A stretch of DNA of 64,000 bases, from the NCBI RefSeq assembly GCF_056746865.1, contig NZ_CM163382.1. One strand, given 5' to 3'. The notes beneath the pieces are model-generated. The model was not told the DNA's origin. It searched no databases and saw only the letters and a program-made list of their open reading frames with translations. Below, one piece after another: positions 7,677 to 35,171 of the stretch. Made by a program: the position numbers and the translations under genes. How positions within the stretch are numbered: position 1 is the first letter of the stretch; each line of letters begins with the position of its first letter.

Positions 7677-7883
7677 GCGAGCAGCATTCCTGATTTTAAA
7701 CGTGAACGCCGCTGGAAGAATTATCAGGTATAGAATGGCGTTGGGTGCTTGAGGCTGTCTGGCGTTAAGCATTCGCGAGGTTCCAGATGGACAAAAGCCC
7801 CAGGCGATATTTCTATCAACCTGAGGCCAGCGTTCGAACCTAAGCAATTCGAATGTTAGTCTCTTCTTTGCAGGGAGGCAAGA

Positions 7884-8036
7884 CATGCTGACAAAATATG
7901 CCCTTGTGGCAATCATCGTACTGTGTTGTACAGTACTGGGATTCACGCTGATGGTAGGCGACTCGTTGTGTGAGTTGAGTATCAGAGAACGTGGTATGGA
8001 GTTTAAGGCAGTTCTCGCTTACGAATCGAAGAAGTA
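7884..8036 (+). CDS. hokX: Hok/Gef-family small membrane toxin (type I toxin-antitoxin locus)
   Basis: 50 aa ORF ([50 protein letters not shown]) with a hydrophobic N-terminus and conserved Cys, typical of Hok proteins; SD ggagg 6 nt upstream. Absent from the ORF track because it is under 60 aa. Confidence 0.6.
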
Positions 8037-18015: not shown

Positions 18016-21000
18016 CTATTTCATCTGCTCTTCAACTTTATTTAGTAATGGTGATATCGCCCACAGATTCTGAAAAGGTAGCATTTTACGGACAGCGTGG
18101 GTTTGCTGGCTGTCAAATTCTCCGTTAAGTACACCATTTGCAACCGTCGCGGCATCACCGCCAAGATCAAAGGTAGGACCAAGTAAAGCACCAATAGCAT
18201 TACGACTCTGAAACCTTGATACCGGAGGCGCACCAAACATCGCGCCAAGACCAAACCTACCGCCGCTTATGTTCTCAACGGTATTCAGCGGCTCAGAGAG
18301 CCAGCCAAGCATTCCGCCCCGGTCGATCCCCTCTTTCACAAGGTTATTCCAGCTGTAGTCGATATCGCGACCGCTTAACTTCTGTTTCATCATATAGACC
18401 ATTGAGCCAAGCGCAATCGTGCCAAGCGCACCAAGATAGAATGAAGCATCGCCCTGCTGGATACCAGATACCAACACCCTGTTATGCTGTGCGAAGATAA
18501 ACGTTTTGAACTGCGTGATCATCTTCCAGCCTTCTTTACTAAAAAACAGCGGTGTATCACCTACGCCAGGCGTTACAATCACTGAGTCTACATCTTTCAG
18601 CACTGCAGACTGGAAAATCTCTCTAGCGAAACGGTCATCCCACAGATGACTATGCCCGGTTAACAGCCCGTCCATATCCTCTCCGTGCTTCCCGAATTGC
18701 TCCCCGATTCGGCGCAGAACATCTTCATTGATGCCGACCTGTGCCATCTTCCGCATTTCACTTTTGGCGAGCGTGCCACCAGCAGAAACCTGGCGAGCCG
18801 CGTCAAGTATCCTCGACTGCACTATCATCCCGGACCATGATTTAAGTGCGCTGTTCCACTGATTCATCAGCGTCCAGTTACCGAATTTCTGCGTCATCCA
18901 GTTCAGGCCTCGCTCAGCGGCGCTTCTCCGGCTATAGGGGTCAGTAAGATCCGCTATAGCCTTTGTACGCGTAGACAGGACATAATCAAGCCCAACGGCC
19001 ATTTCTCGCAAATCCCTGGTTGCAATTTTCACTGAGTCCATATTTTTAAGCATGCTTACCATTGGTCCGAGAGATTTTCTCAGGCCATGCTGCATCATCG
19101 GTCGCATCAGATCAGTTGCAGCGGAGACGGTCATTCCACCAAGCAAACGGAGGAAGTTAATATTCCTAGCAACTCGCCCGGCACGAACAAAGAAACTGCG
19201 TGGATCTTGAGGTGCGCCGTAAGTACCAAGCAGTCGGTCACGCATAGCCGTAATATCCCTAATATCAGCCTCCCGTTGCTTCTCAAGAGCTGCACGTCGT
19301 TTAGGTGTTTTAGCCTCTTTTATTAGCCGGGTATATTCCTCACTAACCTGACGGATTTGCTCCCCCATATCTTTACGGCCAAACTGCGCAGTCAGCTCAA
19401 TTTCTGGTGCCACCTGCCGGAGATAACTTTCCATGATGTAGTTAACATCTGATTCAAGAAAATCTTCTATACGCTCATCAGGAATAAGCAGCGTTCGGCT
19501 TTTAGTGAAACCAGCCCGACCAACGAGTCTCTCTGGGATAATATCGGCTGGTACAAGCCCGGAAGGTGCGCCTATTATTTTATTCACGATCTCGTCAGCA
19601 GCGTCCTCTGCTTCCTCTCGGGATAGAGGCTCCATCTGCTTCAGTGCTCGCTCGCGGCTTGCATTCAGCCTTGTGGTTGAATTTGCCCGTTTTTGCAGTC
19701 GGCGAAGCTCAGAACGATATTTCCGTGGATTATCCAGCAACTCCATATGGCGCTGATAGACAGGAAGCTCACTCTTTGCCTGCGCTATATCATCAAGGCG
19801 TGTTTTAAGGTCAGAGCTTTCTTTCATCATTCTTGCCTGAAGTTTTTCTGATGAAGTCTCGGCCAACTCTTTTTCTATTCTTGTAAGACGCGCCTGTGTG
19901 TCAGTCTCCTGAGATATAAGCTTATTTCGTTTATCCAGTTCTTCCATGAGTAGAATTTTTTTACCAGACCATTTCTCCGCTTCAGCGATTTCACTAGCGA
20001 GAGCATCAGCGCGCGGTGCCGATTCCTCTGCAGTTTTTAGCAATGAATTTATCCTTTCAATTCGCTGACCTGCTTTGTCAGCACCTTTGGCACTAATCCC
20101 TTGTATCCAGTTGGCAATTCGCCCTCTGAATTCAGTGCGGTCGGAAAGTATCTTATCGAACTTATAAATGCGGGGAAGATAACTTTTCGCCGTCACGACA
20201 TCGATATCCTCAGGAAGGATCCCCAGTTCCTGCATACGGGCTTTTGTGGTCTCGAAAATGGGGCGGATTCTGGCGGCTGCTTGTGAAACCTCAGGAATAT
20301 CACTCTGATCACCACGGCGCATAGCCATGCCAACAGCTTCATTGAAATCAATAAAGCTCATCCTCTTCACGCCGCGGGCGCTGACAGATTTGCTGTACTG
20401 CTGGTAAGCATCACGAGTGGCTTCCATCTGCTTATAAAGCATGGCGTCGTATTGCTTAATCTTAGTCTCGACTGCCGTAAACGTAGCCAACCCCTCATCA
20501 TTTTTGGCGAAGAAATAGTTATTTTCGGCAAGCTGCTGGTTAATCTGACGGGAGACAAGAGATGGTGATTGCGCCAAGCGGCCAGCAGGAGTGACACTCA
20601 ACGTTTTGTTAGCAAGTCCAAGTCCAGCGAGCTGTTCCTGATCGAGTGTGGTATTGAAAACCTGAGCTGCACCAATGCTTTGAGGAGAATCCATACCTCG
20701 CAAATGATTACCTACTGAGTTAACCACTGCCTCGCGCGCGCTAGGTCCAGCAAGTAGCTGTGCACCAGCACCAAGGATCCCACCAACGAGAGCATCAACA
20801 ACAACGTTCGATACGCTCTCCATCGGTGAGCGAGCTTCCTGAGTGGCCTGCAATGCGGCCTCTGAAGCAACACTGCCAGCAGCATTGGCTAAAGCAAAAC
20901 GTCCGGCTGTTTCTGCAATACGACCGCCACGAACGACAGCGCCGAACGGAATAAACATAGAAATCGCATTGAATGGATCTGCTAATCTCATTGCTACAGA

Positions 21001-21405
21001 AGAGACTGTACCAGCAAATCCCAAGCCTGAATTGTATTCCATGTCAGCTCTCTGCTGATCGATTCGATGTTTAATTGCCATTGTTTCTTCAGGCGAACCG
21101 GAGTTGATAAACGAATCTGCAAAATCTTCATAGCCTTTAATATCTGCTGCATCGTTATCAAATGGGTTATATCCTTCAATCCTGTCAAACTGACTGAAAG
21201 GAGCACTGGCAATAAAGCTACCCAGCGTGTTATCTATACGAAATGCTGCTTGTCTAGACCTTTGAACGCGTTGATCACTGGTAAATGGGTTCACAGCAGA
21301 AAGCAAAGAAGGTGTTTCCATATAGAAATTACTGTCATCAGGTGCTGCTATTTGCTGAATATCCTCGCCAAGCAACTCTTTAGGATCCTGTTCATATATC
21401 GGCAT
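18016..21405 (-). CDS. Very large protein of unknown function (1129 aa; second gene of cargo operon)
   Basis: Long uninterrupted ORF; small-residue-rich hydrophobic segments (GAGAQLLAG, GALGTIALGSMVYMM, GLGAMFGAPP), long coiled-coil-like Glu/Lys/Arg/Gln-rich stretches, no P-loop or HExxH motif. Start codon overlaps the stop of the upstream 915 aa gene (TAATG). Confidence 0.75.
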   Translation of the reverse strand: MPIYEQDPKELLGEDIQQIAAPDDSNFYMETPSLLSAVNPFTSDQRVQRSRQAAFRIDNTLGSFIASAPFSQFDRIEGYNPFDNDAADIKGYEDFADSFINSGSPEETMAIKHRIDQQRADMEYNSGLGFAGTVSSVAMRLADPFNAISMFIPFGAVVRGGRIAETAGRFALANAAGSVASEAALQATQEARSPMESVSNVVVDALVGGILGAGAQLLAGPSAREAVVNSVGNHLRGMDSPQSIGAAQVFNTTLDQEQLAGLGLANKTLSVTPAGRLAQSPSLVSRQINQQLAENNYFFAKNDEGLATFTAVETKIKQYDAMLYKQMEATRDAYQQYSKSVSARGVKRMSFIDFNEAVGMAMRRGDQSDIPEVSQAAARIRPIFETTKARMQELGILPEDIDVVTAKSYLPRIYKFDKILSDRTEFRGRIANWIQGISAKGADKAGQRIERINSLLKTAEESAPRADALASEIAEAEKWSGKKILLMEELDKRNKLISQETDTQARLTRIEKELAETSSEKLQARMMKESSDLKTRLDDIAQAKSELPVYQRHMELLDNPRKYRSELRRLQKRANSTTRLNASRERALKQMEPLSREEAEDAADEIVNKIIGAPSGLVPADIIPERLVGRAGFTKSRTLLIPDERIEDFLESDVNYIMESYLRQVAPEIELTAQFGRKDMGEQIRQVSEEYTRLIKEAKTPKRRAALEKQREADIRDITAMRDRLLGTYGAPQDPRSFFVRAGRVARNINFLRLLGGMTVSAATDLMRPMMQHGLRKSLGPMVSMLKNMDSVKIATRDLREMAVGLDYVLSTRTKAIADLTDPYSRRSAAERGLNWMTQKFGNWTLMNQWNSALKSWSGMIVQSRILDAARQVSAGGTLAKSEMRKMAQVGINEDVLRRIGEQFGKHGEDMDGLLTGHSHLWDDRFAREIFQSAVLKDVDSVIVTPGVGDTPLFFSKEGWKMITQFKTFIFAQHNRVLVSGIQQGDASFYLGALGTIALGSMVYMMKQKLSGRDIDYSWNNLVKEGIDRGGMLGWLSEPLNTVENISGGRFGLGAMFGAPPVSRFQSRNAIGALLGPTFDLGGDAATVANGVLNGEFDSQQTHAVRKMLPFQNLWAISPLLNKVEEQMK

Positions 21406-24152
21406 TATTTGCCCCCTGCGTATATATTGCTCGGAAGGTAATTGGCTGAACCATAACCGAATGGTTTGGTCAGATCTGGAGGAGTATATCCATCTTTATT
21501 GCTGAACTGCGGCAGCGGATTGCCTTCTCTCCGCACTCTAGCCTCATCAACACGCTGTTGCTGGAACTGAATGGTTTGCCTGTACATTGGAGATGTCAGC
21601 TGATCCGGCTTGAAACGAACAGGGAGACCATTTTCTCCAATATAATTTCTCGGTTCTATCGCTCCGTTTGCGTCAGGCTGTAAAACCATAACAGCATAAC
21701 TCCTATCCCTTGCCGTAAGGCCATCAGAAACAAGTATTAAGTCCGTATCACTGCGAGGACCGCCAAAGGATTTTGATTTAAGCTCGCGTTTTTCCTGCTC
21801 CCACTGCCCCTGTATCCAGTTACCAGCACCATTATTTACTCCGTACAATGCCTCAGGTGCATACTTCATAACCTCTGCTTTGCCATTAACCGTAGAAACT
21901 CCCCAGGTGGTTCTGATCATGGCATTGGTCATTTTCTCAGCCTGTTCTGCATCGCCACCTGTCTGTACAAAGTTAGCATCGTAAATTGTCTGGTAATCTC
22001 GCTGATAGGCCGCATTTGATTTTCCTGGATCGGTAATATCCGGAGACCACGAACCAAAGGAAGTCAGACTGCTGGCGTTATTTTGTGCAGCAGTTACCCT
22101 CGCCGCGACATATTTTTTGTCTCGCATGGCAGTGGAAAGCATCTGTTTCATTCGGTCATCCTGTTGGAACACCTGACTGTAAGCCATATCAACAGCCTTA
22201 TCCTCCGGCACGCCAGCGCGGGAATAATCGTAAACCTTGCCATAAAATGCCATCGTACTTTTATCAAGTGTTGCCGCTGCCGCCGGATTATTATCGAATA
22301 ACTGACCGTAGAATTTTGCCATCGGGACAACCAGCGCAGGATCTCTTGATGTTGCTCCACTGTTAAGCATTGTTTTAACCTGAGTTGGTATCATGCCGCT
22401 TTTAGTTGTGACGGTGACCAGTGTATTGATGCTCTGCGGATCAGATATGGAAAACGAAGGCGCGATATCCTGCGCGAAATAACGGTCTACCGCTGCCTGA
22501 TTGTTTTTGTCGTTCGGGTCCAGCGGGAAGTTATTTTGCATTGAAGACACGAACCTGTTTCTTCCCTGCTGAATCTCCCACTCCCTATCCATCTCTTTAA
22601 ATTTGGCCTGCATTTTCTCCCAGCGTTGCTGGTTAGCAGCAAATCCAGGAGCATTTGGATCCTGTGGACGTAAACGTTCAAGAATGTCTTGTCGTCCTTC
22701 TGGAGTGAGGTCTTTAGCGGCACCAATGACACCTCCATATTGTATCTGCGCCTGCATATCCTTCCACTTCATAGCGCCAATGCGCGGACCATTGGCCCGG
22801 ATAAAATCGTCCTCAGAAGGTAACTTCTCAGGTTTCAATCCTTCATCAAGGGCTGAATATGCATCTTTAACTACGGTGCTAAGCTGGTCCGCATACTGCT
22901 GGCGGTACTGATTTCTCAGCTCATTAGCCTGCCTCAATGCCTGTATTTGCATTTGAGGGCTCATAGCATCAAATGCCGCATTGCCCGTATAACGCTTAGG
23001 TGAATCAAGGTTAGTTAGACCAAGGGCTGCCGAGATACCAGTTTCAAGCTGTTCGGTGCTATAAGGCATACTGCCATTTTCGTGTTTAATAATCCCAGCA
23101 CATAAAGCAGCTAGTGTCTTTGGGTTAGAGATATCAAGCTGATCATTCTCCCCAACACCAAGCTCACCACACAATGCCCTAATATAAGCATCAGTATTAT
23201 TACCATCACTAGCCGGAGCATAGCGATTAACAATCTCGCTAACGGTGTCATAGCCTTGACGCTGGTAAGACAACATATTTTTACCCAACGCGCGGATTCC
23301 ATGCTCAGGGGTAGCAAACGTTGCAAAACGTCCATCGCTACCGATCTGACCTTCCCACGGGTTAGATTTGCTCGCTTCAATATTACCAGGGTTATTATTA
23401 CGTAAACCACGAGCATCCAATGAATTACCATGTGATATTGCACGACTCACACCATCAAGATCCCCTGGCTCTCCATTAACCTGAAGAAACTCGTTGTATT
23501 TTTGAGCGATATTTCCTATCCATGCTTGCTGCCCCATTTGTTCCTTGAGCTGAGTTTTCTGCTGAACACGCCACTCATCAGGAAGCCCATGCGCATCAGC
23601 GTATTGATCAATAGATTCAAATCGCTGCTTGGCTAAATCGACAAATGCTTGGTTATAGCTATATAGCCCCGCAGACTGAGTGACAGCCAATGCATTTCCT
23701 GACAAATACGTTTGATCTTGGAATTGCTGAAACTGCCCAACTTCATATCGACGTGCCTGATTGTAATAAGACTGCATAGACTGCTGGAGTTGAAAGGATA
23801 ATTTATTCCTTTCCTCACTTTCAGGGATTGAGCCTAATAATGCCTGAGCCCTTTCCTGCATATTTTTCATAACAGCGTCACTCTGACCAAGAGCGTTTTT
23901 ACCCTGTTTAGAAATCAGCCCATTTTCAGGGTTGTTAATCTGGTCATCTGCAAATTGGTTAAATTGCAGTAACGCCTCCTGGGCCATAGCAACATTCGCT
24001 TTCTGCCTGGCTTCACCATATGCCACCGCATACTGATCTGCGACATTCGCCAGCACCTGACCTGCTTGAGGAACATCGAAGGTCTGAAAACCACCGGTTT
24101 GCACACCACGACTTTGCACCTGGCGTCCGGATGTAGTAGGAACAACAAGCAT
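21405..24152 (-). CDS. Very large protein of unknown function (915 aa; first large gene of cargo operon)
   Basis: Long ORF preceded by strong SD (AGGAGGT 6 nt upstream); Gln/Ala-rich helical protein with a central block RNNNPGNIEASKSNPWEGQIGSDGRFATFATPEHGIRALGKNMLSYQ that looks like a conserved domain I cannot assign. Confidence 0.75.
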   Translation of the reverse strand: MLVVPTTSGRQVQSRGVQTGGFQTFDVPQAGQVLANVADQYAVAYGEARQKANVAMAQEALLQFNQFADDQINNPENGLISKQGKNALGQSDAVMKNMQERAQALLGSIPESEERNKLSFQLQQSMQSYYNQARRYEVGQFQQFQDQTYLSGNALAVTQSAGLYSYNQAFVDLAKQRFESIDQYADAHGLPDEWRVQQKTQLKEQMGQQAWIGNIAQKYNEFLQVNGEPGDLDGVSRAISHGNSLDARGLRNNNPGNIEASKSNPWEGQIGSDGRFATFATPEHGIRALGKNMLSYQRQGYDTVSEIVNRYAPASDGNNTDAYIRALCGELGVGENDQLDISNPKTLAALCAGIIKHENGSMPYSTEQLETGISAALGLTNLDSPKRYTGNAAFDAMSPQMQIQALRQANELRNQYRQQYADQLSTVVKDAYSALDEGLKPEKLPSEDDFIRANGPRIGAMKWKDMQAQIQYGGVIGAAKDLTPEGRQDILERLRPQDPNAPGFAANQQRWEKMQAKFKEMDREWEIQQGRNRFVSSMQNNFPLDPNDKNNQAAVDRYFAQDIAPSFSISDPQSINTLVTVTTKSGMIPTQVKTMLNSGATSRDPALVVPMAKFYGQLFDNNPAAAATLDKSTMAFYGKVYDYSRAGVPEDKAVDMAYSQVFQQDDRMKQMLSTAMRDKKYVAARVTAAQNNASSLTSFGSWSPDITDPGKSNAAYQRDYQTIYDANFVQTGGDAEQAEKMTNAMIRTTWGVSTVNGKAEVMKYAPEALYGVNNGAGNWIQGQWEQEKRELKSKSFGGPRSDTDLILVSDGLTARDRSYAVMVLQPDANGAIEPRNYIGENGLPVRFKPDQLTSPMYRQTIQFQQQRVDEARVRREGNPLPQFSNKDGYTPPDLTKPFGYGSANYLPSNIYAGGK

Positions 24153-24785: not shown

Positions 24786-25994
24786 TCAGGCTGTCGCCTG
24801 AATCATTTCGGTGGGTTCCTGCTTCAACGGGCGGCCTGACTGCACCATCCCTCCACAGGCAAGAACGGCGTGCCCCGCCGCTAAAATGTTACGAGCGCCG
24901 TTTACATCGGCGTTCGCTGTATATCCACATACCTGGCATCTGAATTGACTTTGTGACAGGCGATTTTCTTTCGCTGTATGACCACAGCACGCGCAACGCT
25001 GGCTTGTGTACGCTGGCGGAACAGCAAGCACCTGACCGCCACACCAGAGCTGCTTGTACTCAAGCTGACGGCGCATTTCATACCAGCCCTGATCCAGTAT
25101 CGAACGGTTTAAACCTGATTTTGCCCGGACATTGCGCCCCGGCTGGCTGACCGTACCCGAGGCTGACTTTGACATGTTGCTGACCTTCAAATCCTCAATG
25201 ACTATCATTGCGTGGTTTTTGCTGATGGTCGTTGTGACTTTGTGAAGGTAGTCCCTGCGGATATTTGCGATACGGGAATGCAGTCGCTGTATTTTGCGTT
25301 TCTGCTTCTGCCAGTTGTTGCTGAATTTAACCTTGCGGCTTAACTGGCGCTGAAGTCTCGCCAGCTTCTTCTGGTTTTTATGAAAACTGTTTACAGGCTC
25401 AAAGACCGTGCCATCTGACAGCGTGGCGAGTTTAGCCACGCCAGCATCCAGCCCGACCATTAATGCTGAAGGGTGAACCGGAGTTGATACTTCACTTTCT
25501 GTCTGAATACTGATGTACCACTTACCGCAGGACTGGCTGACAGTGACATTTTTCACAACACCCGTGACCTGACGGCTGTTCCGGTAGCGCATCCAGCCCA
25601 GTTTCGGCAGAAAAATACGGCTGTTTTCCTGATCGAGCTTAACACCCTGCGGATAGCGGAATGCATCATGCTGTCCCCGCTTTTTGAATCGGGGAAAAGC
25701 GGCACGCTTCTGAAAGAAATTTTTGTAGGCTCGCTCAAGGTCTTTCAGTGACTGCTGCAATGGCTGTGAGGGAGAATCTTTAAGCCATTGCGTTTCAGTA
25801 GCATTTTTCCATTCAACCAGCCAGGAAGTCATCTTTGCATAAGAAATATATTTGTTCCCGGCCTCATGATTCTCATTCTGAAGCGCCAGAGCACGATTGA
25901 AAACGAAACGACATGCGCCCGCGAAGCGCCTCATTTCACGCTCCTGTTTTCCATTTGGTCTTAACTGGAATTTGAAAGCTTGTAGTCGTTTCAT
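24786..25994 (-). CDS. tnpB: TnpB (OrfB) RNA-guided nuclease-like protein of IS200/IS605 family
   Basis: 402 aa with a C-terminal zinc finger (CACCGH...CQVCGY) and RuvC-III-like motif (DVNGARNI). Confidence 0.85.
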
Positions 25995-31475: not shown

Positions 31476-32292
31476 GGCTGCTCACCTCCATGCGGCGGGC
31501 TAACCAGCGTTGCGAAAGACGAATTAATTCAGCTTTCCGCTGGTGGTAGTCCTGGCCTAACTCAATCAGCGTGATATTGCTCTGCTCAAGGTAAGAAAGG
31601 TGCTCAAGCTGCAGCGTGCTCATGTGGTCGCGTGGTTCGCCTGTGATGCCGTTCGCCTGCGCCCACTGTTTTGCATTCATGCCACCCAGCACGATACGCG
31701 CCAGCATATTGGCTTCCGTGGTGTAGTGGTGCTGGAGCGTGTTTTTACCCAGTTCAGCCCGGTACGCCTCCAGCGCGGCACACATTGGCTTAAAGTAGCT
31801 GGCTACGGTGATACGGGCTTTCAGTTCCCGGCGTAACGCTGCGGAACGTACAGGCGCTACCTTGTGTAGCTCCTCCTCGCATTTGATGAAGTACTGACGA
31901 ACGGCGCGGCCCTGTTCGGTGCGTTCGATCATTGCCAGTTCTTTCGCCATTCCGACACTTAACAGATAGTCTTTACCGGGTCTGCCAGAGTGCTTAATCT
32001 TGCTGTAAGCCTCGCCATTCGGGCTTTTCCCCAAATTTGGGGAAATTGTTTTATGGACTGAGTAATCGTACCCAATGGTGAAGTCATATTCAGAGATACG
32101 ATCAGTGATCCATGTAGAGAAGTCTTTTCCCACGCCCAACGCTTTGTGTAACGCTTTTGCGCTAACAACAGCGGCTTCACGCCCGCCAATAACGCCGGAA
32201 ATAACCGGGATAATTTCGCCGAAATTTTGCAGATTCTGGTTTTCAGGCCGAACAAAGCCCTGCCCCTGTACGGGCGTTTTTCGCAGTTTCAT
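31468..32292 (-). CDS. Phage antirepressor-like protein (Ant/KilAC-type)
   Basis: 274 aa; resembles prophage antirepressor proteins (ALHKALGVGKDFSTWITDRI); start overlaps the Bro-N gene. Confidence 0.55.
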   Translation of the reverse strand: MKLRKTPVQGQGFVRPENQNLQNFGEIIPVISGVIGGREAAVVSAKALHKALGVGKDFSTWITDRISEYDFTIGYDYSVHKTISPNLGKSPNGEAYSKIKHSGRPGKDYLLSVGMAKELAMIERTEQGRAVRQYFIKCEEELHKVAPVRSAALRRELKARITVASYFKPMCAALEAYRAELGKNTLQHHYTTEANMLARIVLGGMNAKQWAQANGITGEPRDHMSTLQLEHLSYLEQSNITLIELGQDYHQRKAELIRLSQRWLARRMEVSSHA

Positions 32293-32367
32293 AAAAACTC
32301 CGCTATCGAATTAAGTTACTTTTTATTTGCTAGTGGATAGCTTGGGCAATAACCCGTAGCTATTTAA

Positions 32368-32565
32368 TCAGGCAGCCGTTCCGCGTGATTCGGCAATACG
32401 CTGATTGATCCATTCGTCAATTTCACTTTCAACGAAAGCAATCGCTCGCGAGCCAATTTTAACTGATGCAGGAAATTTACCTTGCCCCATAAGGCGATAA
32501 ATCCATGCCTTGCTATATCCAGTTCTACGCTGAACTTCTGTTAAACGAATAAGCGTATTTGACAT
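32368..32565 (-). CDS. alpA: AlpA-family transcriptional regulator / excisionase-like protein
   Basis: 65 aa with the MerR-like HTH pattern of AlpA (LIRLTEVQRRTGYSKAWIYRLM...SEIDEWINQR). Confidence 0.8.
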   Translation of the reverse strand: MSNTLIRLTEVQRRTGYSKAWIYRLMGQGKFPASVKIGSRAIAFVESEIDEWINQRIAESRGTAA

Positions 32566-32668
32566 CTATTTACCTCATAACGTCTACTCAATTTGACGAG
32601 GTAATCATGGCACAGAAATAACGAATATTTTCATACCCTCAGGCCTAATGGTTACCGGAAGGAAATTA

Positions 32669-32777
32669 ACCCTAAGGGTGATGGTAATCGGGAGGAAATC
32701 TACCCTAAGGGTGATGGTAAAATTGACGGGGAAGATAAAAAAATACCCTCAGGGTAACAGTAAATCACCCTCAGGGT
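32669..32777. promoter_or_regulatory. Array of four palindromic sites ACCCT(A/C)AGGGT upstream of alpA
   Basis: Copies at 32669, 32702, 32745 and 32767; the first two are embedded in a longer direct repeat (accctaagggtgatggtaa). Confidence 0.45.
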
Positions 32778-32792
32778 ATGCGGTATGGTGCG

Positions 32793-33596
32793 TTAATCCG
32801 GCTTTGCGTTCTTTTGGCTGTTGTCTCGGTTAATAGGGCAGGCAGTCCTCTCTATGAGCGTTGCAAGAGCATTACTTGCCCCCCACTGCTTAAGCTCCCT
32901 AGTTATCGCTTCTTGATTTCCCCTGGTGGCAAAATCATTTTCTGGATCGTAATTGGCCCACTCTCTGTTTCTAATCTCAATAGCCTTAGCTAATGGGTCT
33001 TTATCCCAGTATTTATATAAGTGTATCGGGCGCTCTTGCTCTAACTGCTCTATCCTTGCCCTTAACTCTGCGTTTTCTCTTTCCAGCATTGCGATTTGGG
33101 ATAATAAATCATCCTCTGTACGCAACTCTTTCTTTTCAATATCGCGTCCTTGTACCTCGTCATTTTCAGAAGAGTTAGCGCCTTCCAGCTTCGTTAACGC
33201 GTCAAGGACATCGGGAAAAATTGCGAAAATTTCACCCCTTATAAATCCAATGTTCTCAAATTCGGGATCTTCCCAATAACCGGACACCAGAAAACCATTT
33301 TCATCCCTCTCACCAGGTAAACAACCATGTTTCCGAACCGCATCCAGATTTCTATAAAGAACATCATAATCAAATTCATCCCGATACGGGTTACAAAAAG
33401 ATTCCAACAGCTTAAATTCATTTACTGTGTACAGGCGGATATGTTCTCCGCTTATTCTCCTGAGTATCCAAGTTATGAGATCTGAAACATCATAATCATC
33501 ACCAGCGACCTTAAGCACGACCTCAAGAAATTCACGTAAAGAAATAAAATCTTTTTTGTATTCGTTTAATTCGGCATGAATATCAATCATACGCAC
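32793..33596 (-). CDS. Hypothetical protein (267 aa) between integrase and alpA
   Basis: Acidic protein with a coiled-coil segment (IAMLERENAELRARIEQLEQE); no catalytic motif recognised. Confidence 0.6.
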   Translation of the reverse strand: MRMIDIHAELNEYKKDFISLREFLEVVLKVAGDDYDVSDLITWILRRISGEHIRLYTVNEFKLLESFCNPYRDEFDYDVLYRNLDAVRKHGCLPGERDENGFLVSGYWEDPEFENIGFIRGEIFAIFPDVLDALTKLEGANSSENDEVQGRDIEKKELRTEDDLLSQIAMLERENAELRARIEQLEQERPIHLYKYWDKDPLAKAIEIRNREWANYDPENDFATRGNQEAITRELKQWGASNALATLIERTACPINRDNSQKNAKPD

Positions 33597-33718
33597 ACCT
33601 CAGCGTCCTCTACTGTAGTGGCTGTGCCAGCCCGTCGAGGTATACGGTTTTTCGGGAGCGACCCTAGACACAGCTTTTTCTTTCGTCGCTCAAAGTCTAC
33701 TACTGTATACTCAACCAG

Positions 33719-34972
33719 TCATCCACATTTTCCGAACTTGCCATGCACCACGTTGCCGCCCTGTTCCAGTGAGTCCATATAGTCGGCGTACCACTGGAGC
33801 ATCTCGCGCCGCCCGTCCAGATATTGCGCATGATTGTACGTGCCACGAATTGAGTTCTTATCAACGTGTGCAAGCTGCGTTTCTATCCACGCGGTGTTAT
33901 AGCCCTGCTCATGTAAAATCGTGCTCATCGTGTGCCGGAACCCATGACCAGTAACGCGCCCAGAATAGCCAATACGACGAATAAGCACGTTCATCGCCAT
34001 TTCACTCATCGGCTTACTGTGCTGGATTCGACCAGGGAAAATAAACTGATACTGCCCCGTCATGTGTTTTAACTGTTCCAGAATAGCGATCGCCTGTTCT
34101 GAAAGCGGCACACAATGAGGACGGCGCATCTTCATTCGTTCTTTAGGCACTTCCCACAAACGATTATCAAAATCGATCTCCTGCCATTCTGCCTGTCGTA
34201 ATTCCCCTGGCCGGAGCCCTGTCAGAATCAATAATCGCATACCCAGCTTGACGATCTGGCTTCCGGTGTACGTATTAAGAACGCGGAAAAATTCCGGCAG
34301 TTCGTCGGCCTTCAAATAGGCATAATGCTCTTTTTTGTGTGGAGCAAATGCGCTTGCCAGATCTGGTGCGGGGTTATATTCAGCGCGTCCGGTGATGATT
34401 GCGTACCGGAACACCTCGCCGCATCGCTGGCGAACCTTACGCAATTTTTCGGTCGCCCCACGGTCATTAAGACGGGAGAGAACCGCAAGCAACTCCATTG
34501 GCTTAATTTCTGCGATCGGCCTGCCGCCAATGTACGGAAAAACGTCTTTTTCAAACGTCTCGATCATTTCCTCGGCGTATGACGATGACCACCTGTCGAT
34601 CCGCTTTTCATACCATTCGCGAGCGATACCCTCAAAAGTATTGCCAAATTTGCTCGCCTGTTCTCGCTTTTGAGCTTTTCTGGCCTCACTTGGATTTATA
34701 CCACCAGCAAGAAGCCTTTTAGCCTCATCCCTTGCCGCTCTGGCATCAGACAGAGACACATCAGGGTACACGCCCAACGACAACATTTTGGGCTTTCCTG
34801 CAAATCTGTAACGTAGTCGCCACCCTTTCGAGCCGTTCGGCTCAATGAGTAACGAAAGCCCGTTACCGTCATTGAGTGTATAAGCCTTTTCTTTCGGCTT
34901 CGCGCGCCTGATAGCAAGGTCTGAAAGCAGCATGTGTATAGCTCCAAAAAATAAATTTTGTCCTATACGCAT
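33719..34972 (-). CDS. int: Tyrosine site-specific integrase (P4 / CP4-57 IntA family)
   Basis: 417 aa with an N-terminal arm-binding-like domain and a C-terminal catalytic region (HGFRHT, LAHVDKNSIRGTYNH); adjacent to the tRNA 3' end. The true start may be the internal MLLSDLAIRR. Confidence 0.9.
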   Translation of the reverse strand: MRIGQNLFFGAIHMLLSDLAIRRAKPKEKAYTLNDGNGLSLLIEPNGSKGWRLRYRFAGKPKMLSLGVYPDVSLSDARAARDEAKRLLAGGINPSEARKAQKREQASKFGNTFEGIAREWYEKRIDRWSSSYAEEMIETFEKDVFPYIGGRPIAEIKPMELLAVLSRLNDRGATEKLRKVRQRCGEVFRYAIITGRAEYNPAPDLASAFAPHKKEHYAYLKADELPEFFRVLNTYTGSQIVKLGMRLLILTGLRPGELRQAEWQEIDFDNRLWEVPKERMKMRRPHCVPLSEQAIAILEQLKHMTGQYQFIFPGRIQHSKPMSEMAMNVLIRRIGYSGRVTGHGFRHTMSTILHEQGYNTAWIETQLAHVDKNSIRGTYNHAQYLDGRREMLQWYADYMDSLEQGGNVVHGKFGKCG

Positions 34973-35097: not shown

Positions 35098-35171
35098 TGG
35101 AGCGGGCGAAGGGAATCGAACCCTCGTATAGAGCTTGGGAAGCTCTCGTTCTACCATTGAACTACGCCCGC
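35098..35171 (-). tRNA. glyU: tRNA-Gly (anticodon CCC)
   Basis: Reverse complement reads GCGGGCGTAGTTCAATGGTAGAACGAGAGCTTCCCAAGCTCTATACGAGGGTTCGATTCCCTTCGCCCGCTCCA: cloverleaf-compatible, anticodon loop CTTCCCAAG, T-loop GGTTCGATTCC, 3' CCA. Confidence 0.9.

What the first reader, a model, noticed from the sequence alone, without database searches (positions are those of the whole stretch)
32566..32792. Four ACCCT(A/C)AGGGT palindromes upstream of alpA
Perfect 11-bp palindromes occur at 32669, 32702, 32745 and 32767 in the 227 bp spacer between the 267 aa gene and alpA; the first two sit inside a longer direct repeat. Such arrays are typical of operator or arm-type binding sites for a dimeric regulator (AlpA, integrase N-domain or a host factor) controlling excision.
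Basis: seen in the sequence. Interest (0 to 1): 0.35.

Follow-up and report, generated by a model that had tools for sequence, protein, structure and literature searches.

The report
Operator repeats upstream of satellite alpA
Four identical 11-bp palindromes in front of alpA, the master-switch gene of an E. coli phage satellite, are real and conserved, look like protein-binding sites, and always occur with one protein domain of the unannotated gene just upstream, which points to an unrecognised regulator of satellite induction.

Summary
ACCCT(A/C)AGGGT occurs four times at the stated coordinates, against 0.01 expected, and nowhere else in the 64 kb. A fifth, split copy abuts the alpA promoter.

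The window holds a PICI-like phage satellite at tRNA-Gly. Its order is int, Rfam int-alpA RNA, a 267-aa gene, the palindrome array, then alpA.

In diverged relatives the spacers no longer align, yet the 11-mer persists. Site spacings fall near multiples of about 10.8 bp, and site positions relative to a conserved extended -10 element are fixed. This is the signature of a DNA-level operator.

Islands with a 97% identical AlpA but a different upstream gene lack the motif. Integrases vary freely while the motif stays.

The motif tracks the conserved C-terminal domain of the 267-aa protein, which follows a leucine zipper. In an AlpA-anchored sample, 30 of 31 loci with that domain carry the palindrome and 0 of 36 others do. 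It persists when the N-domain is swapped and is replaced by other repeats when the C-domain is swapped.

Best reading: cognate operators of an island-encoded dimeric regulator that gates the alpA promoter. Direct binding, the sign of regulation and the helper signal are inferred. The domain's fold is unassignable.

The parts
32767..32777 (.). Palindrome site 4 (distal), ACCCTCAGGGT. Its centre is about -175 from the predicted TSS.
   Evidence: Exact match. The site is mutated in L016/L023 and deleted in L032, so single sites are dispensable.
32745..32755 (.). Palindrome site 3, (T)ACCCTCAGGGT(A). In the alpA sense it is followed by T7 (32737-32743). Its centre is about -153. It may double as a weak terminator of the 267-aa gene.
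   Evidence: Exact match. The consensus scan flags it as terminator-like, but the hairpin is only -5.0 kcal/mol.
32702..32712 (.). Palindrome site 2, ACCCTAAGGGT, centre about -110.
   Evidence: It lies inside the second 33-bp repeat unit.
32669..32679 (.). Palindrome site 1, ACCCTAAGGGT, centre about -77 (-109 from the alpA ATG). A site at -107 to -109 is found in most related islands.
32635..32652 (.). Promoter-proximal 18-bp composite element (ACCATTAGGCCTGAGGGT in the alpA sense). Its right half is an AGGGT half-site ending just upstream of the -35 position. Its centre is about -46.
   Evidence: Degenerate match. Relatives carry CCCTCATGCCTGAGGG or CCATTAGGCCTAATGG at the same place, and the window has a hybrid of the two.
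32648..32713 (.). Two tandem 33-bp units, each holding TACCAT plus one palindrome. Copy number varies between strains.
   Evidence: 85% identity. L029 has one unit and L033 has three. Length variants of -33 and +33/34 bp occur among E. coli genomes H18-H21.
32604..32612 (-). Predicted extended -10 element of the alpA promoter: TG-c-CATGAT. The predicted TSS is about 32597.
   Evidence: T, G, A(2) and T(6) are invariant or nearly so in 17 diverged upstream regions (alignment A3). The generic sigma-70 scan found no promoter here, so this call rests on conservation only.
32566..32601 (-). alpA 5' leader with a stem that includes the Shine-Dalgarno sequence and an invariant TAGACGTTA core.
   Evidence: 92% of cells paired, little covariation. 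It is shared even with L002, which lacks the palindromes.
32368..32565 (-). alpA (65 aa), Phage_AlpA / HTH_17.
   Evidence: Pfam PF05930, E = 2.4e-19.
32793..33596 (-). 267-aa gene (RefSeq aa from 33590). Residues 1-145 form a variable alpha/beta domain. Residues 161-188 form a leucine zipper (33033-33116). Residues 189-257 form the conserved C-terminal domain (32826-33032). This is the proposed binder of the palindromes.
   Evidence: No Pfam, PHROG or NCBIfam family. The AF2 model has pLDDT 86.9. Only residues about 166-257 are conserved across 64 representative clusters, and always at the C-terminus.
33607..33674 (-). Rfam int-alpA RNA (RF02996), the leader of the 267-aa gene.
   Evidence: 46.9 bits against a gathering score of 35.8. 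It holds the same position in 8 related loci.
33719..34972 (-). Tyrosine integrase of the island, next to tRNA-Gly(CCC) at 35098-35171.

Best explanation
The palindromes are the cognate operator array of the island's own 267-aa protein. That protein is predicted to be a parallel leucine-zipper dimer. Its two conserved C-terminal domains would read the two ACCCT half-sites. Four full sites and one split promoter-proximal site lie on one face of the DNA helix. They sit at fixed distances upstream of a conserved extended -10 promoter, so a cooperative protein array would gate alpA transcription. Published work on related E. coli satellites shows that alpA is the switch for excision and replication. 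The variable N-terminal domain is proposed to sense the helper phage.

Shown here: the sites are real, conserved, phased and positioned relative to the promoter, and they co-occur strictly with the C-terminal domain. Inferred: direct binding, dimerisation and the sensing role. The sign of regulation is also inferred. I slightly favour a repressor released by the helper, in the manner of Stl, over an activator.
For: 1. Enrichment: 4 sites against 0.01 expected, and none elsewhere in 64 kb.
2. Footprint: in diverged islands (L018, L024, L025, L026, L030, L031, L044 and others) the spacers no longer align, yet 1-5 perfect 11-mers plus near-copies persist.
3. DNA-level geometry: 45 of 51 adjacent spacings lie within 1.5 bp of a multiple of 10.8 bp, against about 28% expected by chance. 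Site centres recur at -108, -151, -174 and -206 from the alpA ATG across lineages (-109, -142, -185 and -207 in the window type). A conserved TGnCATSAT extended -10 lies downstream.
4. AlpA-anchored, motif-blind sample of 67 distinct upstream regions: 30 of 31 with a canonical C-domain (HMM E < 1e-10) have at least one perfect palindrome, and 0 of 36 others do (Fisher p = 3e-18, uncorrected).
5. Natural domain swaps. With the N-domain replaced and the C-domain kept (window, L053, L018 and short forms), the motif is kept. With the C-domain replaced and the N-domain kept (L246 = P0074, L247 = P0069), the motif is replaced by CACTTCCAA or TACCAAT repeats.
6. In L049 the C-domain is followed at once by palindromes although the next gene is convergent and alpA is 2.8 kb away.
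7. The zipper has heptad a/d residues I168, L171, N175, L178, I182 and L185. A buried Asn is typical of parallel dimers, which fits a dyad site.
8. Literature: alpA promoters of E. coli PICIs are switched on by helper phages independently of SOS and partly independently of AlpA, and the inducer and any repressor are unknown (PMC6092414, PMC11773190).
Against: - The domain's coding sequence ends 5-40 bp from the first site, so co-inheritance of one block could produce the association without any binding.
- No site overlaps the -10 element or the TSS, which is unusual for a simple repressor.
- There are no sites upstream of the 267-aa gene itself.
- EcCICFT073, the best-studied E. coli PICI, has neither the gene nor the motif yet is helper-inducible. 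The module is therefore not universal.
- The TSS is predicted, not mapped.
Confidence: 0.55

Rival explanations
1. The palindromes are AlpA's own sites, through which AlpA activates its own promoter.
For: AlpA activates PalpA in EcCICFT073 and contributes to alpA-lux activity in EcCIMP1. The sites lie upstream of the promoter at distances compatible with an activator.
Against: AlpA's recognition helix TGYSKAWxYRL is invariant in every enterobacterial locus examined. That includes L002/L003 (97% identical AlpA) and L246, whose upstream regions contain no copy. In the AlpA-anchored sample, 36 of 67 upstream regions lack the motif entirely. L049 has the motif without an adjacent alpA. A different short motif, TACCAT, is shared between the window and L002 and is a better AlpA candidate. 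From background knowledge, small Xis/AlpA-type winged-helix proteins usually bind as monomers to direct repeats.
Confidence: 0.1
2. The sites are bound by a helper-phage-encoded activator, or by a host factor, that turns alpA on. The upstream gene would be unrelated cargo.
For: alpA induction depends on the helper, and the inducer is unknown. The slot between int and alpA holds very diverse unannotated genes, as a cargo hotspot would. The motif is identical across several enterobacterial genera.
Against: Within one host species and one AlpA clade, the repeat motif changes whenever the C-terminal domain of the upstream protein changes, and only then. The IMG/VR scan for paired sites returned 36 alpA islands and L049. 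The remaining 15 hits were unrelated repeats, and none came from a recognisable enterobacterial phage. Single sites in phages could not be searched. I recall no E. coli regulator with this consensus. MqsA's ACCT-N3-AGGT is only superficially similar, and that comparison is from memory and untested.
Confidence: 0.15
3. The palindromes act in RNA, as hairpins in the 3' UTR of the 267-aa gene that terminate, attenuate or stabilise its transcript and insulate alpA from read-through.
For: Sites 3 and 4 are flagged as terminator-like, and site 3 is followed by T7. In Pasteurellaceae-like relatives a longer hairpin with ACCCTG...CAGGGT arms, a T-run and compensatory changes sits at the same place (L095, L105, L109, L113, L114). 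The region folds better than shuffles, with z = -3.2.
Against: The hairpins are weak, at -3.5 to -5.3 kcal/mol with 4-5 bp stems. Only one of the four has a T-tract. The sequence itself is conserved rather than just the pairing, with no compensatory changes in the enterobacterial clade. An RNA model explains neither the helical phasing nor the fixed distances to the -10 element. The z-score is expected from any set of mutually complementary repeats.
Confidence: 0.08
4. The palindromes are recombination or DNA-handling sites: integrase arm-type sites, a pac/cos site or an origin.
For: Repeat arrays near int, and next to the gene of their binding protein, are typical of att arms, pac sites and iteron origins.
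Against: The array is about 2.3 kb from the tRNA att core. The sites are dyad-symmetric, not directional. Integrase identity among islands that carry the motif ranges from 54% to 97%, and some of them use a different att site. In these satellites the origin is described as lying downstream of the primase gene (PMC10111431). The fixed register with a promoter element argues for transcription control.
Confidence: 0.03

Closest known systems
Stl master repressor and its operators in staphylococcal pathogenicity islands (SaPIs, Gram-positive PICIs)
   Same: A regulator gene lies next to int. Its sites lie between it and the gene that starts the satellite cycle. The proposed logic is the same: a constant DNA-binding module joined to a variable module that meets different helper-phage proteins. 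Induction is independent of SOS (PMC6092414).
   Different: Stl is divergently transcribed from its target and, from background knowledge, has a recognisable N-terminal HTH. Here the gene is co-directional with alpA. The conserved candidate DNA-binding domain is C-terminal, follows a leucine zipper and has no assignable fold. There is no sequence similarity. Repression itself is not shown.
alpA promoters of the E. coli PICIs EcCICFT073 and EcCIMP1
   Same: They share the int-to-alpA layout, the primase, SSB and PerC-type genes, and the AlpA family. EcCIMP1-like islands share a 97% identical AlpA and the same 5' leader with the window. Those promoters are helper-induced and AlpA-boosted.
   Different: EcCICFT073 has no gene between int and alpA and no palindromes. 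EcCIMP1-like islands carry another gene there (EcCIMP1_002, function unknown) and other repeats. No operator has been described for either island.
Multipartite, helically phased operators of temperate-phage repressors (for example lambda OR/OL), bound cooperatively by dimers
   Same: Several dyad-symmetric sites sit near a promoter with integral-turn spacing, and site number and quality vary.
   Different: Lambda-type sites are 17 bp and overlap -35/-10. Here the sites are 11 bp, with half-site centres only 6 bp apart, and all lie upstream of -35. This comparison is from background knowledge, not a test.
AlpA binding element (ABE) of Pseudomonas aeruginosa AlpA, a Q-like antiterminator
   Same: The regulator carries the same name, and its target is a promoter-embedded DNA element upstream of a terminator.
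   Different: The ABE is a single asymmetric hexamer, 5'-GGGACG-3', between -35 and -10, bound by one AlpA molecule (PMC9371919). That is not a palindromic array, and the protein is much larger than the 65-aa AlpA here.
Rfam int-alpA RNA motif (RF02996)
   Same: It lies in the same int-to-alpA interval and is present in the window at 33607-33674.
   Different: It is a different element about 0.9 kb away, upstream of the 267-aa gene. It does not include the palindromes.

Membership tests
Gram-negative PICI-type phage satellite (context of the finding) | Integrase next to a specific att site, oriented inward | tested here: met
   The integrase (Arm-DNA-bind_3, Phage_int_M and Phage_integrase domains) at 33719-34972 lies next to tRNA-Gly(CCC) at 35098-35171.
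Gram-negative PICI-type phage satellite (context of the finding) | alpA downstream of and co-oriented with int, followed by Bro/AntA-zone genes and a primase | tested here: met
   The order is alpA, AntA, Bro-N, Icd-like, DUF4222, DUF927 primase, then SSB, all on the - strand. This matches the four-zone scheme of PMC10111431.
Gram-negative PICI-type phage satellite (context of the finding) | Excision, replication and transfer only with a helper phage | not testable with these tools
   This needs experiments. It has been shown for the related EcCIMP1 and EcCICFT073.
Operator array of a dimeric transcription regulator | Dyad-symmetric sites, over-represented and conserved while the flanks diverge | tested here: met
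Operator array of a dimeric transcription regulator | Fixed register with promoter elements and helical phasing | tested here: met
   The TSS itself is predicted, not mapped.
Operator array of a dimeric transcription regulator | Identified binding protein with a DNA-binding fold | tested here: inconclusive
   The candidate is identified by co-occurrence and by domain swaps. Its fold matches nothing.
AlpA autoregulatory sites | Motif present wherever the same AlpA is present | tested here: not met
   L002, L003 and L246 lack the motif, as do 36 of 67 AlpA-anchored upstream regions.
Integrase arm-type sites | Directional repeats within a few hundred bp of the att core that co-vary with the integrase | tested here: not met
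   The sites are palindromic and about 2.3 kb from the tRNA. The same motif occurs with integrases 54-97% identical.
Intrinsic terminator | Stable GC-rich stem followed by a U-tract | tested here: inconclusive
   Site 3 only: 5-bp stem, -5.0 kcal/mol, T7 tail. Sites 1, 2 and 4 lack a tail or stability.
Stl-type satellite master repressor system | Regulator encoded next to int, with its sites in front of the induction gene | tested here: met
   Gene order and site positions.
Stl-type satellite master repressor system | Homology to Stl, or a recognisable repressor DNA-binding domain | tested here: not met
   No Pfam, PHROG, NCBIfam or PDB match.
Stl-type satellite master repressor system | Repression relieved by binding of a helper-phage protein | not testable with these tools
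   The only indirect hint is the modular, highly variable N-terminal domain.

The most novel reading that the evidence does not exclude
The palindromes are one specificity class of a general, undescribed control module in Gram-negative phage satellites. Its order is int, int-alpA RNA leader, a modular sensor-regulator gene, a cognate repeat array, and the alpA promoter. The regulator would combine a variable helper-sensing N-domain, a dimerising zipper and a swappable DNA-binding C-domain of novel fold. The module would be the missing link, comparable to Stl in Gram-positive islands, through which helper phages switch on alpA. Exchange of N- or C-domains would re-wire helper specificity and operator specificity independently.
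Probability: 0.35. Interest if true: 0.75.

Novelty: new variant of a known kind. Interest (0 to 1): 0.55.

Why it matters
How helper phages induce Gram-negative PICIs is an acknowledged open question. The 2018 paper that defined these islands states that a global repressor is unclear and that the phage inducer is unidentified (PMC6092414). The 2025 EcCIMP1 study still treats the gene between int and alpA as an accessory gene of unknown function (PMC11773190).

This analysis supplies a concrete DNA element, a concrete candidate protein and natural domain-swap controls. The question becomes testable with a gel shift, a two-plasmid reporter and one deletion. If the model holds, it defines a new DNA-binding domain family. 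It would also allow helper range to be predicted and re-programmed in PICI-based tools. The island type is present in 161 of 5,426 complete E. coli genomes, including strain 55989.

Tried and rejected
- Generic promoter scan of 32200-33800: no sigma-70-like site. The -10 call therefore rests on conservation only.
- Literature search for the four 11-mer spellings: only eukaryotic primers and unrelated hits. Searches for PICI, alpA, repressor, binding site and antitermination found no description of this element.
- BLASTN of the spacer against 50,697 phage genomes: only chance hits of 20-39 nt.
- The genome contigs pattern scan was wasted. It gave no information on Enterobacterales chromosomes or prophages.
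- Rfam on the spacer: only a sub-threshold RAGATH-25 hit, 16 bits against a gathering score of 49.
- Search for an att direct repeat of the tRNA 3' end within the window: no exact repeat of 13 nt or more, so the far island boundary is not defined.
- P0031, an apparent fusion of the zipper region to a LacI-type ligand-binding domain, is an assembly chimera.
- Pfam on ten other proteins from the int-to-alpA slot: only DUF6387 in two, so there is no independent 'regulator' annotation.
- Resemblance to lambda boxB (GCCCU...AGGGC) and to the MqsA palindrome was considered from memory and rejected. The loop here is too short for boxB, and the half-site and spacing differ from MqsA's.

Full report
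**1. The observation**

An exact search finds ACCCT(A/C)AGGGT at 32669, 32702, 32745 and 32767 and nowhere else in the 64-kb window. Shuffles give a mean of 0.01 matches, and none of 100 shuffles reaches four. The sites lie in the 227-bp spacer between a 267-aa ORF (32793-33596) and alpA (32368-32565), both on the minus strand. The first two sites sit inside a 33-bp tandem duplication, 32648-32680 and 32681-32713, 85% identical.

Allowing mismatches adds one more copy in the spacer, ACCCTCAGGCC at 32635. Read in the alpA sense, this copy is the right half of an 18-bp element, ACCATTAGGCCTGAGGGT (32652-32635). Centre-to-centre spacings of the four perfect sites are 33, 43 and 22 bp.

**2. Context**

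The region is a PICI-type phage satellite inserted at tRNA-Gly(CCC) (35098-35171), next to actS and xdhA. All listed genes are on the minus strand, in this order:
- integrase
- the 267-aa gene
- alpA (Pfam Phage_AlpA, E = 2e-19)
- AntA and Bro-N proteins
- an Icd-like gene
- DUF4222
- a DUF927 primase
- SSB

The same 1.35-kb segment occurs in 161 of 5,426 complete E. coli genomes, and 145 of them hold at least 80% of it. Strain 55989 is among them. Some copies are 33 bp shorter or 33-34 bp longer.

Published work on related islands shows three things:
- AlpA is required for induction and activates its own promoter.
- Helper phages switch on alpA transcription independently of SOS and partly independently of AlpA.
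- Neither a repressor nor the phage inducer is known (PMC6092414; PMC11773190).

**3. Conservation**

I scanned IMG/VR for two 11-mers within 8-36 bp of each other. This returned 52 loci, of which 36 are alpA islands. In every one, the array sits between the stop codon of a homologue of the 267-aa gene and alpA.

In the more distant islands (for example L018, L024, L025, L026, L030, L031 and L044) the spacers between sites can no longer be aligned with the window. Even so, 2-3 perfect 11-mers and several one-mismatch copies remain. The central base can be any of the four. Within the window type, alleles with 3, 4 and 5 perfect sites exist (L029 and L032, the window, and L033). Single sites are mutated in L016, L023 and L056.

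**4. Geometry**

Across 23 distinct architectures, 45 of 51 adjacent spacings lie within 1.5 bp of a multiple of 10.8 bp. They cluster at 21-23, 32-33, 42-44, 54-55 and 76 bp. About 28% would be expected without phasing.

Site centres recur at about -108, -151, -174 and -206 from the alpA ATG. In the window type the centres are at -109, -142, -185 and -207.

An alignment of 17 diverged upstream regions shows a conserved extended -10 element, TGnCATSAT. Its T, G, second A and last T are invariant or nearly so. In the window it lies at 32612-32604. Immediately upstream of the -35 position lies an 18-bp palindrome in two versions, CCCTCATGCCTGAGGG and CCATTAGGCCTAATGG. The window carries a hybrid of the two.

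With a TSS predicted near 32597, the elements are centred at about -46, -77, -110, -153 and -175. The generic promoter scan found nothing here, so the promoter call rests on conservation alone.

Phasing and a fixed register with a promoter element point to action on double-stranded DNA. As RNA hairpins the sites are weak, at -3.5 to -5.3 kcal/mol. Only site 3 has a T-tract.

**5. Who binds?**

AlpA is an unlikely binder.
- Its recognition helix (TGYSKAWxYRL) is invariant in all enterobacterial loci examined.
- L002 and L003 are EcCIMP1-like islands at tRNA-Thr with a 97% identical AlpA and the same 5' leader. They have no copy of the motif.
- EcCICFT073 has no gene between int and alpA and no palindromes.

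Integrase is also unlikely. It varies from 54% to 97% identity among motif-bearing islands, which use different att sites.

What does co-vary with the motif is the C-terminal part of the upstream protein. An exhaustive HMMER search found 64 representative clusters. They share only residues about 166-257 of the 267-aa protein, always at their C-terminus, behind unrelated N-terminal regions. The shared part is a coiled coil followed by a domain with the signature DDPLxLAIxIRNxEWxxYD...AIExVACPIxR.

I then sampled loci by that domain alone, blind to the motif. Every enterobacterial-type locus has perfect or near-perfect 11-mers directly after the stop codon.

Sampling by AlpA alone gave 80 loci and 67 distinct upstream regions. 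Among these, 30 of 31 with a canonical C-domain have at least one perfect palindrome, and 0 of 36 others do. The Fisher p value is 3e-18, uncorrected for phylogeny or physical linkage.

**6. Natural swaps**

- N-domain replaced, C-domain kept: the window, L053, L018 and short forms keep the palindromes.
- N-domain similar to the window's, C-domain replaced: L246 (P0074) keeps the alpA clade and leader but has four CACTTCCAA repeats and no palindrome. L247 (P0069) has TACCAAT repeats.
- C-domain present without an adjacent alpA: in L049 two perfect ACCCTCAGGGT and a third near-copy start 7 bp after the stop codon. The next gene is convergent.
- More distant C-domain subtypes, in Pasteurellaceae-like loci, come with related but different elements. 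These include a TACCCTG-N10-CAGGGTA hairpin with a T-run and compensatory changes, CYCTATATC repeats, GGGTGATAG...CTATCACCC, and ACTAT-N-ATAGT.
- Other, unrelated C-terminal classes in the same slot have their own repeat arrays upstream of alpA. Examples are AATTGCGG, GCATGCA and AATATTCCA, four copies each.

**7. The protein**

The AlphaFold2 model has pLDDT 86.9. It shows:
- an alpha/beta N-domain (residues 1-145)
- a disordered linker (146-160)
- one long helix (161-188)
- a four-helix C-domain

The long helix has a/d residues I168, L171, N175, L178, I182 and L185. This is the pattern of a parallel dimeric leucine zipper. It would place two C-domains symmetrically, as an 11-bp dyad requires. 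That step is inference.

**8. Mechanism proposed**

The island expresses the 267-aa protein from a leader that matches the Rfam int-alpA RNA (33607-33674). Dimers of the protein occupy the phased array upstream of the alpA promoter. A helper-phage signal received by the variable N-domain changes that occupancy or its effect. alpA is then transcribed, and AlpA reinforces its own expression and starts the satellite cycle.

I cannot tell whether the protein represses or activates. The promoter has a good extended -10 element and a poor -35. The sites lie upstream of -35, with a half-site abutting it. This fits either anti-activation or occlusion, or class I/II-type activation. I slightly favour repression, by analogy with Stl of SaPIs.

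**9. Rivals**

The rival explanations are AlpA auto-sites, a phage or host factor, RNA hairpins or a terminator, and recombination, packaging or replication sites. They are weighed in the rival section. The main caveat to the preferred model is that domain and sites are physically adjacent. Co-inheritance as a block is therefore expected even without binding. Against mere hitch-hiking stand three observations: strict sequence conservation amid diverged spacers, the phasing, and the fixed register with the promoter.

**10. Novelty**

Operators for satellite regulators are a known kind of element. This motif, its association with an unannotated modular protein family, and the general 'slot' architecture are not described in the literature I could search. 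I rate it a new variant of a known kind, of moderate-to-good interest, because it makes the induction problem of Gram-negative PICIs directly testable.

Noticed in passing
window 33607-33674 (- strand); also L025, L053, L044, L057, L246, L247, L004, L060: The Rfam int-alpA RNA (RF02996) lies between the int stop codon and the start of the 267-aa gene. It is therefore the leader of whatever variable gene follows int, not of alpA. This holds across gene types (p267 family, P0074 and P0069 types, a phrog_7144 protein).
   Followed up: partly
window 32566-32601 (- strand); alignment A3 columns 130-156: The alpA 5' leader can form a 7-bp stem (CTCGTAA-N13-TTACGAG in relatives) that includes the Shine-Dalgarno sequence. 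Its loop core TAGACGTTA is nearly invariant, even in islands without the palindromes. 92% of cells are paired, but there is almost no covariation, so it could be a translational gate or a DNA site (for AlpA?).
   Followed up: partly
window 32685-32690, 32718-32723 and 32648-32653; L002 3335-3355: A short motif, TACCAT/ATGGTA, abuts the palindromes in each 33-bp unit. It is the only upstream motif shared with the palindrome-free EcCIMP1-like islands that encode the same AlpA. It is a candidate AlpA site.
   Followed up: partly
L249-L328 (AlpA-anchored loci), e.g. L327, L280, L291, L317: Almost every related island has a 200-390 aa unannotated gene between int and alpA. Several C-terminal classes each bring their own 3-5-copy repeat upstream of alpA (CTTCCAA, AATTGCGG, GCATGCA, AATATTCCA). 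Pfam recognises only DUF6387, in two of ten proteins tested.
   Followed up: partly
window 24786-25994 (- strand): A TnpB (IS605 OrfB / Cas12f-like) ORF lies inside the island. The otherwise 99.9% identical copy in strain SCU-105 (L001) has ProQ/FinO-like and PerC genes in that area instead.
   Followed up: no
window 18016-24152 (- strand): Two very large ORFs (1129 and 915 aa) in the island's cargo region have no PADLOC hit and essentially no Pfam hit. They could be an uncharacterised defence or accessory system.
   Followed up: partly
window 7743-7900 (+ strand): A sok antitoxin RNA (RF01794, 111.7 bits), i.e. a hok/sok-type toxin-antitoxin locus, lies elsewhere in the window.
   Followed up: no
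L095, L096, L105, L109, L112-L114, L119-L122 (Pasteurellaceae-like islands): Between the C-domain gene and alpA these islands have a strong terminator hairpin whose arms change by compensatory substitutions (ACCCTGYC/GRCAGGGT, ATCCTCCC/GGGGGGAT, ATCCCGTC/GGCGGGAT). Two CYCTATATC repeats follow it, and nearer to alpA lies a CGTAACGTTACG or CGTTCGAAC palindrome.
   Followed up: no
L126-L205 (Chloroflexi MAGs); L014; L040; L050: The same 11-mer pair is part of unrelated dispersed or tandem repeats in Anaerolineae-type genomes and in some uncultivated viral contigs. The sequence alone is therefore not diagnostic outside the alpA context.
   Followed up: no
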